Program-made: the position numbers and the translations under genes | From: a virus | Taxonomy: Duplodnaviria; Caudoviricetes | IMG/VR virus record: IMGVR_UViG_2711768659_000002 | Coordinates: 6,897 to 70,896 of that record | Direction: 5' to 3' (one strand) | DNA: 64,000 nucleotides | Shown here: positions 29,004-59,247 of the stretch, in pieces | Position numbering within the stretch: position 1 is the first letter of the stretch | Layout of the letters: each line of letters begins with the position of its first letter | The notes under the pieces: model-generated | Told to the model about the DNA's origin: nothing | Seen by the model: the letters and a program-made list of their open reading frames with translations, nothing else | Databases searched by the model: none

Positions 29004-29291
29004 TTATGTAGCACCTCCTATAATTGCTGCTATAGCCACAGTAAGGTCGTTAACTTGTTGCTGTAAACTATTTATTTGCAATTGTTTTTCTAAAAGCTCT
29101 ATTTGAATAATGCCAATTGCGGGATATATACTATAGCCATTTCCCGTGGGCTTATAACAATAATTAAGTATTCGGATATCGGAAAAGTCACCAAAAACCA
29201 TATATCTATCAACCTCTACTTGCGTAAGAGTACTGTCCGATATGCTGTTAATCTGCATTATTTCAAAATTTGAATTTATACCTATCAGCAT
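29004..29291 (-). CDS. Tail-region protein (possible fibre chaperone)
   Basis: C-terminal coiled coil SLQQQVNDLTVAIAAIIGG. Confidence 0.6.
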   Translation of the reverse strand: MLIGINSNFEIMQINSISDSTLTQVEVDRYMVFGDFSDIRILNYCYKPTGNGYSIYPAIGIIQIELLEKQLQINSLQQQVNDLTVAIAAIIGGAT

Positions 29292-47548: not shown

Positions 47549-47662
47549 TGCAGATACCTCCACATAAAATATGTAAAAGCATGCCGCACGTAGGAAGGAT
47601 GGCCTGGAGGTTTAGGCCGGACCCATAACTAAGTCCCCGTTATTCACGGCATGCAAAATTTA

Positions 47663-48214
47663 TTAACTTGATGCTTTTAAAGCTTCTTCCGAATAGGGTA
47701 AATATTTAGCTCTTGCTTCAATCACAGCCTTTTCAGCTACTTTGATATCTGTAAAACGTCCAAGGTAAATTGTTTTACCTCCAACCCGACAATCTGCAAC
47801 ATAAACACCAGGTGTATTTTTGACGGGATATACTCCTCGGATTCCAGTTTGACTTTTTCTTGTGGCTTGCTTTCTGTTCTGAATGTTTTTCCCAACAGGA
47901 ACAGCACGTAAATTACACCTTCTATTGTCAAGCGTGTTATGATTTATATGGTCAATATCATAACCCGGCTTAGCGTTCATAATCAGCCTATGCATTTGAA
48001 GGAATTTTCTTTTTTCTCCAATAACATAAGTACGCCCTGTAGCATATAAATTTCGGCGCCTTTTATTTTGACTACCATTTACAGTCCATTTCATAGGGAC
48101 ACTACCGACAAGTTCAAAATCAGCAGTATCTATTAAAACCTCGAGACGACTACCATCTATTTTGTCAATAAATATTGTCGTGACATCTCCGCGAATTTCA
48201 TATTTATTTCTCAT
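47663..48214 (-). CDS. Free-standing HNH endonuclease with C-terminal AP2 domain
   Basis: MHRLIM...IDHINHNTLDNRRCNLR; GIRGV..Y.A..IYLGRF....A..A....R..Y. Confidence 0.9.
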   Translation of the reverse strand: MRNKYEIRGDVTTIFIDKIDGSRLEVLIDTADFELVGSVPMKWTVNGSQNKRRRNLYATGRTYVIGEKRKFLQMHRLIMNAKPGYDIDHINHNTLDNRRCNLRAVPVGKNIQNRKQATRKSQTGIRGVYPVKNTPGVYVADCRVGGKTIYLGRFTDIKVAEKAVIEARAKYLPYSEEALKASS

Positions 48215-48312
48215 ATTTGTCGCTCCTCTCAATAGCGCTCCCAAATTTTAAGCATAAGAAAAGGACGGGGGAGCGAATTCCCGTCCTGTCAGTGTTGCAA
48301 CACTGTCTTATG
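48215..48312 (-). ncRNA. Structured 5' leader (three-way junction plus loop-RBS pseudoknot) of the HNH-AP2 gene
   Basis: Outer stem CAUAAGA/UCUUAUG; hairpins CAGUG/CACUG and AGGACGGG/CCCGUCCU; loop UCGCUCC complementary to RBS GGAGCGA. Confidence 0.7.
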
Positions 48313-48326
48313 TAATATTTGTAATA

Positions 48327-49889
48327 TCAACTTGCCCTTACAACTCCAGTCATTCGGAACATACCTGGTAGCACAAGAGCTGGAGCTTGAAAATCGGCAA
48401 AGCAGAAATATAAAGCACTAACAATATCGTCGTAGTCTGAATCTGTTCCGTTATGGTATTGTGTTGATTGTCCTGGCCGGTTAACCGAGATATATCCTTT
48501 TAACTGATTTTCTGTTTCCTGGCTCCATGGAATCTCACACCACTGTTGCTCAACCACAATTGAGAAATCATCAACAAGCTTTTCTTTATTACGGCCTTGC
48601 TCGTTAATAGGGAAGACGGTTAATCCTCTTTTGACAAGCTGGGAACCTATTGTTTCACCGATACCGGTTTGACCGAAGTTAACTGAAGCTCCGTTATATA
48701 GCCGGGAATAGAAAGCTATTCTATCCCACTGCGAATCCCAGCCAAGTCCAATCATTTGGTCAATTTTAACAACACGACCTTTACTGTTTCTTATTACAAC
48801 AGGTTTACCATCACCTTTGGAAGCTGGATCATGTCCGAGAGTGTATGTCTCAAACGGCTCAGGTTCTTCCCACAGTCTCCAGAACTCATTAACTTGCTCA
48901 TCAGTCAGACCGGCAGGAGCTTTCCTTAAAACTCTTTCGTAATTCGGGAAAACGGAATTAATATCTGCAATAAACTCAGCAAGATAATCCTGACGATACC
49001 GGTTCTTTGACATTCTGCGCTCGAGGTTTTCTCTATAAATACGGCCGTTCTTTGTAACTTCGTTTCCTCGGACCGCCATATATGGATTATCCCAGGTAGT
49101 AAACTTCCATGACTCCCAATCAGGGTCCCAATCAGAAGTACCTTTTTGCCCCCAGCGCCACATTTTATAAAAATAATTCATGCCGAGTGGGGAAGAGTTA
49201 ATCAGTGCAACGCCGCCTTTACCTTCAAGACCGCGGCCAGGAGAATTAAGACGTGCCTCAAGGTTTGACCATACATCTTCCATATCTGAAATTCTGGCAG
49301 CTTCCGTGATAGTTACAAGGTCAAGACCGACACCGACCAAAGCTTCAGGGTCATAGGCAGAATGAACTTCAATAACACCGCCATTTACTGTTTCAATTGT
49401 TCTTGTCGTTTTTGAAACATCGACAACTATTTCTTTCGGTAGGTTATGCGTAAGCTCACGCCAGTTCTGGTTAGCTACCTTCTCTGTAGGAGCAATTATC
49501 CACCAAAGCGCATAAGGAACCATGTCAGAACCACGATCTTCATTAAGGCATTTAATAAAGTAATCAATGCCTTCCATGATTGAGCAACGGTCCTTACCCC
49601 ATCTGGCGCCACATGCCAATACTTTGAATCTTGCTTCACTATTGTGAACCAGTTCCTGCCCCCAATGAGGAGTATAGTCGGCAGAGATATTGATACCGCC
49701 TCTGGCATTTGCCATTCGACATTCAGGGCAGGTCTTAAAGGAAGTATAAGACTCGTACTCAGGGCGCCAGATTTGAGAGAATGGCCTGCCGCATTGCTCA
49801 CACATTGAAACTCTATCGCTGGTCGAGTGTTGTATTAACTTTTCATTTTTTTGTTGGATTATTGAGACTGAACCGCCTTTTCGGGGCAT
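48327..49889 (-). CDS. terL: Terminase large subunit with N-terminal Zn-finger
   Basis: CGARWGKD Walker A, LVTITEAA Walker B, GHDPASKGD nuclease and DDIVSAL motifs. Confidence 0.9.
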   Translation of the reverse strand: MPRKGGSVSIIQQKNEKLIQHSTSDRVSMCEQCGRPFSQIWRPEYESYTSFKTCPECRMANARGGINISADYTPHWGQELVHNSEARFKVLACGARWGKDRCSIMEGIDYFIKCLNEDRGSDMVPYALWWIIAPTEKVANQNWRELTHNLPKEIVVDVSKTTRTIETVNGGVIEVHSAYDPEALVGVGLDLVTITEAARISDMEDVWSNLEARLNSPGRGLEGKGGVALINSSPLGMNYFYKMWRWGQKGTSDWDPDWESWKFTTWDNPYMAVRGNEVTKNGRIYRENLERRMSKNRYRQDYLAEFIADINSVFPNYERVLRKAPAGLTDEQVNEFWRLWEEPEPFETYTLGHDPASKGDGKPVVIRNSKGRVVKIDQMIGLGWDSQWDRIAFYSRLYNGASVNFGQTGIGETIGSQLVKRGLTVFPINEQGRNKEKLVDDFSIVVEQQWCEIPWSQETENQLKGYISVNRPGQSTQYHNGTDSDYDDIVSALYFCFADFQAPALVLPGMFRMTGVVRAS

Positions 49890-51755: not shown

Positions 51756-52301
51756 TCATTTATGTAATAAAAAATTCCTGAGGTAGTAATAAAACGACAG
51801 ATAAATAAACTGTCCAGAGCATTTTTTATCTTTCATAAAATAAAAGGGAATATCATATCGCTCGCTGAAACTATGCAAAGTAGCCAAAAATGACTCGGGC
51901 TTGTATTCAGTTCTGTAATTATGCTTAAGAATATCAGTGTATTCAGCATCTTCAATTAAAAGCAGCATTTTACCCTTCTTCCGAATGAATTCCGATTCAA
52001 TCCGGAGCCGGTCATTCGTGAAGTTTCCCGAGAGCTCAACTAAATCACCTTTGCGCTCGATGCTGATTTTATCCGTAAAATACAAATCCCTGACTATTCC
52101 TAATTCAGGAGCAGCAGGGAGGAAGAAGCTGTAATCACCAGATTCGATTTTCTGAGTGACATATGGAATTTTCTTTTCAGTCAGCCATTTAGTAATATGG
52201 CCAAAAACAGTTTCTCTACTATCAATAATAATTGTCATGCTTTTAAGTAATAATTGTAATTCTTTATCACTATATCTATAAAAGCTAACCATAGTTGCCA
52301 C
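51756..52301 (-). CDS. ERCC4-domain nuclease
   Basis: IIIDSRE...GDYS...SIERKG..EL..N...R...E. Confidence 0.88.
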   Translation of the reverse strand: MATMVSFYRYSDKELQLLLKSMTIIIDSRETVFGHITKWLTEKKIPYVTQKIESGDYSFFLPAAPELGIVRDLYFTDKISIERKGDLVELSGNFTNDRLRIESEFIRKKGKMLLLIEDAEYTDILKHNYRTEYKPESFLATLHSFSERYDIPFYFMKDKKCSGQFIYLSFYYYLRNFLLHK

Positions 52302-52914
52302 CTGCCTTATCAGTGAGTTGGTCAGTGTAAATCAGAATTTTTCCTTCTCGGTTTTTATCATAAAAATCTTGAAGTGGGTACCAAACAAAAAAATCTTCAT
52401 CATCTTTTGAGGCATTACATCTTCTGCAAGCGCATACAATATTGGACTTTGTGTAGTTGCCACCTTTTACTAATGGTATGAAATGGTCGTTTTCAAGCTT
52501 GACTTTTTCACCGCAATAAGCGCATAAATTATTGAAATATTTAAGACATTCTTTCCAATCGGTGCTAGTAAAATTATTTAATAGATTCTTTAGCCTTTCT
52601 CGCCTTTTTCTAACAGATTCAAGTCGCATCTGATGACCTTTTTCAGTCTTTTCCCATGCCTTAGAGGTTTCTTTATCTCTTTCTTTATTTTTTATTCTAT
52701 AATCGCGGACATAGTTTTTGTTTTCTTTTGTCCATTTCCGTTTTCTTAGAATAAGTTTGTCGTGATGTTTCGCCATATACTGTTTATAATCATCACTGCA
52801 ACATTGTTTACATCTGTACTGTAAACCATCTTTGTAGTTTTTGTTTTTCGAGAAATACTCAGAAGTTGCAGGCTTTAACTGATTACATTTGTTGCATCTT
52901 TTTAGTTCTTCCAT
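52285..52914 (-). CDS. HNH endonuclease with N-terminal Zn-binding domain
   Basis: CNKC..KP..YF...C..C; CAYCG...DHFIPL.KGG....NIVCACRRCNASK. Confidence 0.9.
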   Translation of the reverse strand: MEELKRCNKCNQLKPATSEYFSKNKNYKDGLQYRCKQCCSDDYKQYMAKHHDKLILRKRKWTKENKNYVRDYRIKNKERDKETSKAWEKTEKGHQMRLESVRKRRERLKNLLNNFTSTDWKECLKYFNNLCAYCGEKVKLENDHFIPLVKGGNYTKSNIVCACRRCNASKDDEDFFVWYPLQDFYDKNREGKILIYTDQLTDKAGGNYG

Positions 52915-53018
52915 GATTTTCGCACCCTTTCAGTATTCGCACCATATGTATAAAAAGACATAAGAAAAGCGAGGTAGGTGCGTATACCTCGCTATCAGCC
53001 CGTCGGCTGTCTTCTGCC
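52915..53018 (-). ncRNA. Structured 5' leader of the second HNH gene (same architecture as 48215-48312)
   Basis: Outer stem GGCAGAAGA/UCUUAUGUC; hairpins CAGCC/GGCUG and AGCGAGGU/ACCUCGCU; loop CGCACC complementary to two GGUGCG, one at the RBS. Confidence 0.7.
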
Positions 53019-53026
53019 ATATTTAA

Positions 53027-59170: not shown

Positions 59171-59247
59171 TTTTGCAGATGGGCGGCCTTATGGCCGTTA
59201 ATGCGCTCCCGGATACCGGGAACCCGTCCAAAGCCGGGAAGCATGAC
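59166..59247 (+). ncRNA. Circularly permuted (type P5-like) twister ribozyme
   Basis: GCA-GA-UGG-GCGGCC-uuau-GGCCGU-UAA-UGC-GC-[P3]-A-CCCG-UCCAAAGC-CGGG; both pseudoknots pair; predicted cleavage U59199/A59200. Confidence 0.8.

What the first reader, a model, noticed from the sequence alone, without database searches (positions are those of the whole stretch)
52915..53018. Conserved RBS-sequestering leader RNA in front of an HNH endonuclease (copy 2)
Outer stem GGCAGAAGA/UCUUAUGUC, hairpin CAGCC-GACG-GGCUG, A, then 8-bp AGCGAGGU/ACCUCGCU with 10-nt loop AUACGCACCU, then UUUCUUAUG as in copy 1. Loop CGCACC matches two downstream GGUGCG, the second forming the RBS (AAGGGUGCGAAAAUCAUG). Loop and both targets have changed together relative to copy 1 (CGCUCC/GGAGCG).
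Basis: partly seen in the sequence, partly recalled or inferred. Interest (0 to 1): 0.7.

Follow-up and report, generated by a model that had tools for sequence, protein, structure and literature searches.

The report
Pseudoknot leader RNA of mobile nuclease genes
A small three-armed RNA fold in front of this prophage's HNH nuclease gene has a loop that matches both the gene's ribosome-binding site and a nearby decoy copy of it. It belongs to an uncatalogued family of portable leaders that travel with selfish nuclease and methylase genes in phages and most likely throttle their translation.

Summary
On the minus strand, 53018-52957 folds into a three-way junction (P1, P2, P3). The P3 loop core CGCACC is complementary to two GGUGCG repeats: T1 at 52943-52938 and T2 at 52926-52921, which overlaps the Shine-Dalgarno of the HNH gene (ATG 52914).

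Copy 1 (48312-48253) has the same geometry with the code CGCUCC/GGAGCG. I found about 20 further members in viral, genome and metagenome contigs. P2 and P3 covary. Eleven different loop codes are each matched by both downstream targets.

The leader is not specific to HNH genes. It precedes HNH, HNH_3/AP2 and LAGLIDADG endonuclease genes and ParB-MT-A70 methyltransferase genes.

A syntenic prophage in a sister species lacks both leader+HNH units at precise boundaries, so the leader is part of a mobile cassette.

Best reading: a cis-acting translational throttle or switch in which the P3 loop alternates between the decoy T1 and the ribosome site T2. The role of T1, the palindromic P2 and the terminator-like P3 are unexplained.

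Nothing in Rfam 15 matches, and int-alpA (RF02996) was also tested directly and does not match. Earlier notes of this scan describe the same kind of leader on other DNA. The closest published concept is the RBS-sequestering hairpins of T-even homing endonuclease genes.

The parts
53010..53018 (-). P1 5' strand (GGCAGAAGA) of leader copy 2
   Evidence: P1 pairs are 95% standard in the family alignment
52996..53009 (-). P2 hairpin CAGCC-GACG-GGCUG
   Evidence: 4 of 5 P2 pairs show compensatory changes
52968..52993 (-). P3 hairpin. Loop is 52985-52976 and the code CGCACC is 52982-52977. It is followed by UUUUCUUAU, so it is also terminator-like.
   Evidence: 7 of 8 P3 pairs show compensatory changes
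52957..52965 (-). P1 3' strand (UCUUAUGUC), which is U-rich
52938..52943 (-). T1: upstream (decoy) copy of the loop target, GGUGCG
   Evidence: 1/2000 shuffles reach the two-site score
52921..52927 (-). T2: loop target (G)GGUGCG overlapping the Shine-Dalgarno, ending 6 nt before the ATG
52285..52914 (-). HNH endonuclease gene (209 aa; PF01844/PF14279). Its stop overlaps the ATG of the ERCC4-nuclease gene (ATGGTTAG, 52292-52285).
52293..53026 (-). Approximate extent of the leader+HNH cassette, which is absent from the syntenic prophage of G004
48253..48312 (-). Leader copy 1 three-way junction (P1 CAUAAGA/UCUUAUG; P2 palindrome 48305-48290; P3 48287-48262 with loop AAUUCGCUCC)
   Evidence: 82 bits
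48220..48242 (-). Copy 1 targets: T1 GGGAGCG (48242-48236) and T2 GGAGCGA (48226-48220); ATG at 48214
47663..48214 (-). HNH_3 endonuclease gene behind copy 1. Leader plus gene (about 48326-47669) are inserted between the TerL stop and a conserved non-coding element.

Best explanation
This is the 5' leader of a promoter-less mobile gene cassette (leader plus homing-endonuclease or orphan-methylase ORF). The mRNA folds into a compact three-way junction. The 8-12-nt loop of arm P3 (L3) carries a 6-8-nt 'code' that can base-pair, as a pseudoknot, with either of two identical downstream words. T1 lies a fixed ~10 nt after P1. T2 covers the Shine-Dalgarno/spacer 1-8 nt before the start codon. When L3 sits on T2 the 30S subunit cannot bind and the DNA-cutting or DNA-modifying protein is not made. 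When L3 sits on T1 the ribosome site is free. The leader therefore throttles translation of a potentially toxic selfish gene wherever the cassette lands, and may switch it. Shown here: the fold, its covariation, the two-target complementarity, the gene association and the cassette boundaries. Inferred: repression, the alternation between T1 and T2, and the near balance of the two states.
For: Fold: z = -4.35 and -4.85 for the two copies. Family: a covariance model finds exactly two copies in the 4.9-Mb genome, at 82 and 65 bits. It finds 21 members in the fetched loci. Helix covariation: 94% of cells are paired, 13/21 pairs have compensatory changes, and 0/500 shuffles reach the observed values. 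P3 covaries at 7/8 pairs and P2 at 4/5. Pseudoknot: all members have two downstream sites complementary to L3. In 19 of 21 members at most 3% of 2000 leader shuffles reach the score, and most give 0/2000. The cognate weaker-site score is 6.0 against 2.65 for leaders with a different code. There are about 11 distinct codes. G.U wobbles at T1 and in P1 sit on the sense strand, which points to RNA. Geometry: T1 starts 6-10 nt (one case 14) after the junction, and T2 ends 1-8 nt before the start codon. Energetics: L3:T2 averages -12.3 kcal/mol against -10.9 for L3:T1, and T2 is stronger in 13/16 members. Genes: HNH, HNH_3/AP2, LAGLIDADG and ParB+MT-A70. Mobility: both leader+HNH units are missing at exact boundaries from the syntenic prophage in G004. 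Precedent: RBS-sequestering RNA structures control T-even homing endonuclease genes (PMC2988022).
Against: There is no expression, structure-probing or toeprint data, so repression is inferred from complementarity only. T1 would weaken simple sequestration, so its purpose is unproven. Two members (L002, L077) have only a generic anti-SD loop (CUCCA), with 4-6 bp sites that are not significant on their own. P3 plus the U-tract looks like a terminator, which could be the primary role. P1 and the base of P2 look invariant partly because my DNA patterns required them. Many members are close relatives, so the counts overstate independence.
Confidence: 0.6

Rival explanations
1. The element is mainly a transcription insulator. 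P3 plus UUUUCUU is an intrinsic terminator that keeps upstream transcription out of the cassette, so the gene is read only by antiterminated or rare read-through polymerases. The loop-target pairing is secondary. This is not mutually exclusive with the best explanation.
For: P3 of copy 2 passes the terminator scan. Every member, and the distant variants L082, L084, L085 and L090, has a GC-rich stem followed by a U-run. Several members carry a further terminator hairpin just upstream. T4 mobE and segF also carry terminators (PMC2988022).
Against: Copy 1 lies between TerL and portal, where an efficient terminator would cut off head genes. The 8-12-nt loops are long for terminators. Termination does not explain why the loop sequence must match two downstream words in 11 different codes.
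Confidence: 0.15
2. It is a factor-responsive ON switch with riboswitch-like logic. The three-way junction plus the L3:T1 pseudoknot forms a defined tertiary fold bound by a phage or host protein or a small ligand. Binding locks L3 on T1 and frees the ribosome site; without the factor L3 falls onto the stronger T2.
For: T1 is at a fixed distance from P1 while T2 is fixed relative to the start codon, as expected for an aptamer and an expression platform. T2 is the enthalpically stronger partner and T1 the closer one. The P1/junction sequence is conserved.
Against: The junction has only 0-3 unpaired nucleotides per strand and no conserved purine-rich core typical of ligand pockets. Distant variants have unrelated P1 and P2 sequences. 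No candidate factor was identified.
Confidence: 0.1
3. It is an exoribonuclease-blocking or mRNA-stabilising knot, analogous to flavivirus xrRNA. The three-way junction with the L3-to-3'-tail pseudoknot stops 5'-to-3' decay (RNase J-type) and preserves the cassette mRNA.
For: The order of elements is the same: P1-P2-P3-P1', then a tail pairing with L3. The only Rfam near-hit for copy 1 is the tick-borne flavivirus xrRNA (17.7 bits, E = 0.17).
Against: The score is far below the gathering cut-off of 46.5 bits, and copy 2 has no such hit. No 5'-end/junction pseudoknot is evident. This model does not explain why T2 at the RBS must repeat T1.
Confidence: 0.06
4. It is a new self-cleaving ribozyme, suggested by its position near a twister ribozyme (and a first-reader hammerhead call that did not reach Rfam's gathering score) in the same prophage.
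For: A Twister-P5 match lies at 59174-59238. New ribozyme classes have been found near such genes (my own knowledge, Weinberg et al. 2015).
Against: No match to any ribozyme family. There is no conserved unpaired core. Conservation is in helices and in a freely re-coded loop.
Confidence: 0.03
5. It acts at the DNA level, as a protein operator, recombination site or homing site made of inverted and direct repeats.
For: P2 is often a perfect palindrome. The leader marks the 5' boundary of a mobile cassette.
Against: G.U (G.T) wobbles occur on the sense strand only, at T1 and in P1. The complement of the targets always sits exactly in a hairpin loop. T2 tracks the start codon.
Confidence: 0.04

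Closest known systems
RBS-sequestering RNA structures of T-even phage homing-endonuclease genes (I-TevI, I-TevII, I-TevIII, segB, Aeh1 mobE; reviewed in PMC2988022)
   Same: It sits directly 5' of free-standing homing-endonuclease genes inserted between phage genes. The ribosome-binding site is placed in an RNA helix. The presumed purpose is to keep a selfish nuclease at low level.
   Different: Those are simple local hairpins without a shared sequence family, and they are relieved by an internal late promoter. Here there is a conserved, portable three-way junction with a loop-to-RBS pseudoknot, an obligatory second (decoy) target and freely re-coded loop/target words. No sigma-70-like promoter lies inside the leader. 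The leader also serves methyltransferase genes.
Rfam int-alpA RNA motif (RF02996), named as a relative of similar leaders in earlier notes of this scan
   Same: According to those notes (unchecked), it is phage-associated and has a junction-type leader whose loop can pair with a parking site or the RBS.
   Different: Neither window copy, nor any of 10 member loci, nor the whole host genome matches RF02996. I could not obtain an int-alpA example to compare architectures.
c4 antisense RNA of phages P1/P7 (Citron & Schuster 1990, cited in PMC8198154; details from memory)
   Same: A small structured RNA is encoded upstream in the same operon as its target. Its loops pair with short words, one of which overlaps an RBS. 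Specificity differs between phages through co-varying loop and target bases.
   Different: c4 is cut out by RNase P and acts in trans through two different loops on two different words. Here one loop has two identical words in cis. There is no Rfam C4 match.
Flavivirus exoribonuclease-resistant RNA (xrRNA, e.g. RF03536)
   Same: The topology is identical: a three-way junction whose P3 loop pairs with the tail just 3' of P1.
   Different: There is no significant model match (17.7 against 46.5 bits). The host biology differs, and the second target at the RBS has no counterpart.

Membership tests
T-even-type RBS-sequestering leaders of homing endonuclease genes | Lies immediately 5' of a homing-endonuclease gene inserted between phage genes | tested here: met
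   HNH, HNH_3 and LAGLIDADG genes lie downstream. Both units are insertions relative to G004.
T-even-type RBS-sequestering leaders of homing endonuclease genes | The Shine-Dalgarno/RBS is base-paired within the leader structure | tested here: met
   This is complementarity and covariation only: T2 ends 1-8 nt before the start codon and matches L3 in all members.
T-even-type RBS-sequestering leaders of homing endonuclease genes | An internal (late) promoter gives transcripts that lack the inhibitory strand | tested here: inconclusive
   No sigma-70-like site lies between L3 and T2 in either copy. The late-promoter type of this phage is unknown.
Rfam int-alpA (RF02996) | Covariance-model score at or above the gathering cut-off (35.8 bits) | tested here: not met
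   No match at E <= 10 in either leader region or in the whole genome. No match at E <= 0.1 in 10 member loci.
Flavivirus xrRNA (RF03536 and relatives) | Covariance-model score at or above gathering (46.5 bits) | tested here: not met
   Copy 1 scores 17.7 bits, E = 0.17. Copy 2 has no hit.
Flavivirus xrRNA (RF03536 and relatives) | Three-way junction with an L3-to-3'-tail pseudoknot | tested here: met
   (topology only)
Flavivirus xrRNA (RF03536 and relatives) | Blocks a 5'-to-3' exoribonuclease | not testable with these tools
   Needs an enzymatic assay.
Intrinsic (Rho-independent) terminator | GC-rich hairpin directly followed by a U-run | tested here: met
   Copy 2 P3 is listed by the scan (9 pairs, 5 GC, tail TTTCTTATGT).
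Intrinsic (Rho-independent) terminator | Transcripts actually end there | not testable with these tools
   Needs 3'-end mapping.
Known self-cleaving ribozymes (twister, hammerhead, pistol, hatchet, twister-sister) | Match to the family model or a conserved catalytic core | tested here: not met
   No ribozyme family appears at E <= 10 at either leader. The only gathering-level ribozyme in the window is Twister-P5 at 59174-59238.
c4 antisense RNA (P1/P7) | Match to the Rfam C4 model; RNase P processing | tested here: not met
   No C4 hit. No tRNA-like call by ARAGORN. Processing is not testable here.

The most novel reading that the evidence does not exclude
The leader is a programmable two-state RNA device. 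One loop is poised almost iso-energetically between a nearby decoy (T1: closer, weaker, tolerates G.U) and the ribosome site (T2: farther, about 1.4 kcal/mol stronger). This would act as a co-transcriptional timer or a sensor that allows only a short burst of nuclease or methylase synthesis per mRNA. The loop/target 'codes' are kept different between cassettes in the same phage (three of three co-resident pairs differ) so that leaders do not cross-repress. It would be a natural counterpart of engineered orthogonal translational repressors, carried as the standard 5' module of selfish DNA-acting genes.
Probability: 0.3. Interest if true: 0.8.

Novelty: new variant of a known kind. Interest (0 to 1): 0.6.

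Why it matters
It adds a well-supported, uncatalogued RNA family. Evidence includes helix covariation and an unusually clear 'coded' pseudoknot.

It extends what is known about how homing endonucleases and orphan methylases are tamed outside T4-like phages. It shows that unrelated selfish genes share one portable regulatory module, which suggests how such cassettes can land between essential genes such as terminase and portal without killing the phage.

The obligatory decoy target is a design not explained by the classical sequestration model. The diversity of codes offers ready-made orthogonal parts for synthetic translational control.

Tried and rejected
- BLASTN of the locus against deposited phages: no match. 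TerL is only ~26% identical to any deposited phage.
- Pattern TAAGACAG..TTGCAA..CTGA in IMG/VR: no new true members. A relaxed 3' pattern: nothing new.
- Most of the 53 genome-contig pattern hits were chance matches without the fold.
- Covariance-model scans of 37 congeneric genomes, and of 149 genomes of the host order in all (which include them), gave one more true member, L077, and several terminator-like false positives: L078, L079, and the unexamined weak hits L080 and L081.
- The weak model hit at window 29175-29243 is not a member.
- Close homologues of the HNH protein in IMG/VR carry no leader. Genome-contig relatives of the ParB-methyltransferase: 16 of the 57 loci went into a model scan that gave no new members.
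- Exact-protein contig look-up: none on record.
- uORF idea: a start codon follows T1 in only about half of the members, so it is not a defining feature (read).
- sigma-70 promoter inside the leader: none.
- The P2 palindrome as a repeated operator elsewhere in the window: not enriched.
- tRNA-like reading: ARAGORN finds nothing.
- int-alpA membership: rejected by model score. An attempt to obtain an int-alpA example failed (phylum sample, E. coli CP4-57 int-alpA region).
It was re-run from references.
- Host organism name: not obtainable with the tools used.

Full report
**1. What is there**

All genes in this part of the window run on the minus strand. Read on that strand, 53018-52957 is GGCAGAAGA, then the hairpin CAGCC-GACG-GGCUG, then AU, then the hairpin AGCGAGGU-AUACGCACCU-ACCUCGCU, then UU, then UCUUAUGUC.

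- RNAfold gives exactly this three-way junction: -27.2 kcal/mol, z = -4.35, 0/200 shuffles as good.
- Downstream lie GGUGCG at 52943-52938 (T1) and at 52926-52921 (T2). T2 is followed by AAAAUC and the ATG of a 209-aa HNH protein (PF01844/PF14279).
- The loop core CGCACC (52982-52977) is the exact complement of both words.
- Copy 1 (48312-48253) has the same geometry with loop AAUUCGCUCC and targets GGGAGCG and GGAGCGA. It sits before an HNH_3 gene whose real start is the ATG at 48214.

**2. It is a family, and the helices covary**

Rfam 15 has nothing for either copy at E <= 10, apart from an insignificant 17.7-bit resemblance of copy 1 to a flavivirus xrRNA.

Members came from several routes:
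- A DNA pattern taken from the two copies picked out true homologues among chance hits in IMG/VR, GTDB genomes and JGI metagenomes.
- A covariance model (R1) found only the two copies in the 4.9-Mb host genome.
- The model found one diverged copy in a congeneric genome, L077, with P1 re-coded to CAUAAUAAA/UUUAUUAUG.
- It found two more in front of methyltransferase genes fetched by protein similarity.

On the 21-member model alignment, 94% of cells are standard pairs. Thirteen of 21 pairs show changes on both sides, and 0/500 shuffles and none of the slid controls come close. P3 covaries at 7 of 8 pairs and P2 at 4 of 5.

P1 looks nearly invariant, but my patterns required it. Members found by other routes vary it with compensation. 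The second copy on L221 has a compensated one-pair insertion, GCAUAAAGA/UCUUUAUGC.

Architectural variants with unrelated stem sequences keep the same plan (L082, L084, L085, L090).

**3. The pseudoknot 'code'**

In every member the P3 loop is complementary to two downstream words. I count about 11 different codes:
- CGCUCC
- CGCACC
- CCGUACC
- GACACC(C)
- CCGCAC
- CGCACUC
- CCUCAC
- UAGCACC
- GGCUUC
- AAGCACC
- the generic CUCCA

Using a fixed 60-nt downstream window and scoring the weaker of the two best sites, 19 of 21 members are reached by at most 3% of 2000 leader shuffles, and most by 0/2000. Cognate pairs score 6.0 on average, against 2.65 for leaders with a different code. L002 and L077 (CUCCA) are not significant on their own.

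The geometry is regular:
- T1 begins 6-10 nt (one case 14) after the junction.
- T2 ends 1-8 nt before the start codon.
- The T1-T2 gap varies from 7 to 17 nt.
- Duplex energies average -10.9 kcal/mol for L3:T1 and -12.3 for L3:T2. T2 is stronger in 13 of 16 parsed members.
- All G.U wobbles are in T1 (6/16 against 0/16). These represent about three independent events, so this is suggestive only.

G.U pairs on the sense strand, also seen at the last P1 pair in six members, point to RNA rather than duplex DNA.

As my own inference, the extra ~1.4 kcal/mol of T2 is about what is needed to offset the entropic cost of its roughly three-fold longer tether (1.75 RT ln 3, about 1.2 kcal/mol). The two states may therefore be nearly balanced.

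**4. What it is attached to**

The downstream genes fall into four types:
- HNH (this copy; also L264 by similarity of the N-terminus)
- HNH_3 with AP2 (copy 1, L002, L077, L232, L238)
- LAGLIDADG (L242/L259)
- ParB-N plus MT-A70 DNA methyltransferases (L003, L004, L050, L086, L096, L221, L222 and others)

Nearly identical leaders head an MT-A70 gene in L050 and an HNH_3 gene in L232. The leader with its two targets is therefore a module, and the ORF behind it is exchangeable.

Contigs can carry two leaders, and the co-resident codes differ in all three cases seen: the window, L221, and G149 contig 2.

**5. It is part of a mobile cassette**

A sister species (G004) holds a syntenic prophage with proteins 40-83% identical.

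- There the TerL stop is followed directly by a conserved non-coding element. In the window, about 660 bp (leader copy 1 plus the HNH_3 ORF, about 48326-47669) are inserted exactly between them. The 101 nt after the insertion are 93% identical.
- Likewise, the 182-aa gene and the ERCC4-nuclease gene abut in G004. In the window they are separated by leader copy 2 plus the HNH ORF. The HNH stop overlaps the ERCC4 start (ATGGTTAG, 52292-52285).

Both units are thus free-standing, promoter-less homing-endonuclease cassettes that bring their own leader.

**6. How it most likely works**

The best-supported reading is a cis-acting translational throttle. L3 on T2 occludes the Shine-Dalgarno/spacer; L3 on T1 leaves it free.

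This fits the published logic for T-even homing endonuclease genes, whose ribosome sites are buried in RNA structures (PMC2988022). It also fits the toxicity risk of nucleases and methylases.

T1 is obligatory and sits at a fixed distance from P1, which simple sequestration does not explain. I favour a decoy or competitor role that sets the repression level or provides a kinetic window.

Alternatives, listed with what would refute each:
- a factor-stabilised ON state
- an xrRNA-like protective knot
- a terminator/insulator role for P3, which passes a terminator scan
- a new ribozyme
- a DNA-level site

None of these accounts for the two-target code as well as the switch model does. The terminator role may well coexist with it.

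**7. Unexplained**

- P2 is very often a perfect palindrome. Its apical tetranucleotides are UGCA, GUAC, GGCC, AGCU, AAUU or GCGC, against the non-palindromic GACG, AAUA, UCGCU and one 9-nt loop. That is roughly 6 of 10 loop types where 1 in 16 is expected. A hairpin does not need this, so dimerisation, a protein site or a template-switch origin are open possibilities.
- A terminator-like P3 between TerL and portal is also odd unless late transcription is antiterminated.

**8. Relation to known families and to earlier notes**

Earlier notes of this scan describe the same kind of leader before nuclease genes on other DNA. These include a 'decoy copy', a self-complementary loop and, for AT-rich variants, a link to Rfam int-alpA (RF02996).

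I tested that link. RF02996 matches neither leader, nor the host genome, nor ten member loci. This subfamily therefore cannot be filed under int-alpA, and I could not retrieve an int-alpA example to compare architectures.

The c4 antisense RNA of P1/P7 is a looser analogue (covarying loops and RBS-overlapping targets in one operon), recalled from memory and cited via PMC8198154.

**Verdict**

This is a real, conserved, uncatalogued leader RNA: a new variant of a known regulatory idea. Its mechanism has not been tested.

Noticed in passing
window 47575-47655 (-): The non-coding element directly after the copy-1 HNH gene is 93% identical to the sister prophage in G004, while neighbouring proteins are only 60-72% identical. 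It folds as a closed multi-branch structure (GCAUGCCG.../...CGGCAUGC, then UUUU), z = -3.3. There is no Rfam match. It is a candidate structured RNA or packaging-related site between TerL and portal.
   Followed up: partly
window 59174-59238 (+): Twister-P5 ribozyme match at 44.7 bits, above the gathering score of 37.6. It is the only gathering-level Rfam hit in the window.
   Followed up: no
window 52285-52292 (-): The HNH stop codon overlaps the start of the ERCC4-type nuclease gene (ATGGTTAG). The insertion therefore preserves a start context for the downstream gene. The likely ERCC4 start is ATG 52292, not the GTG at 52301 listed by the ORF finder.
   Followed up: partly
P2 of family members (window 48290-48305; L221, L251, L086, L084, L085, L090): The P2 arms are mostly perfect palindromes with self-complementary apical tetranucleotides (UGCA, GUAC, GGCC, AGCU, AAUU, GCGC). 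Near-identical leaders L235 and L238 differ almost only in this loop (AAUA against GACG).
   Followed up: partly
L090 (-) around position 1844 of the reverse strand; L082, L084, L085 upstream of MT-A70 genes: These are sequence-unrelated leaders with the same plan: a three-way junction, a U-run, and a loop complementary to two downstream repeats, the second at the start codon. The design class is therefore wider than the covariance model reaches.
   Followed up: partly
window 48323-48329 and 47663-47670 (-): The copy-1 cassette is flanked by a short direct repeat, CAAGTTGA at the TerL end and CAAGTTAA at the HNH end. The empty site in G004 reads GAGTTAA. This is a possible microhomology used for insertion.
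   Followed up: no
L077 2056-2126 and 2404-2465 (+): Two tRNA genes lie about 0.5-0.9 kb downstream of the HNH_3 gene (ORF 997-1560) that follows the diverged leader in the congeneric genome G027.
   Followed up: no
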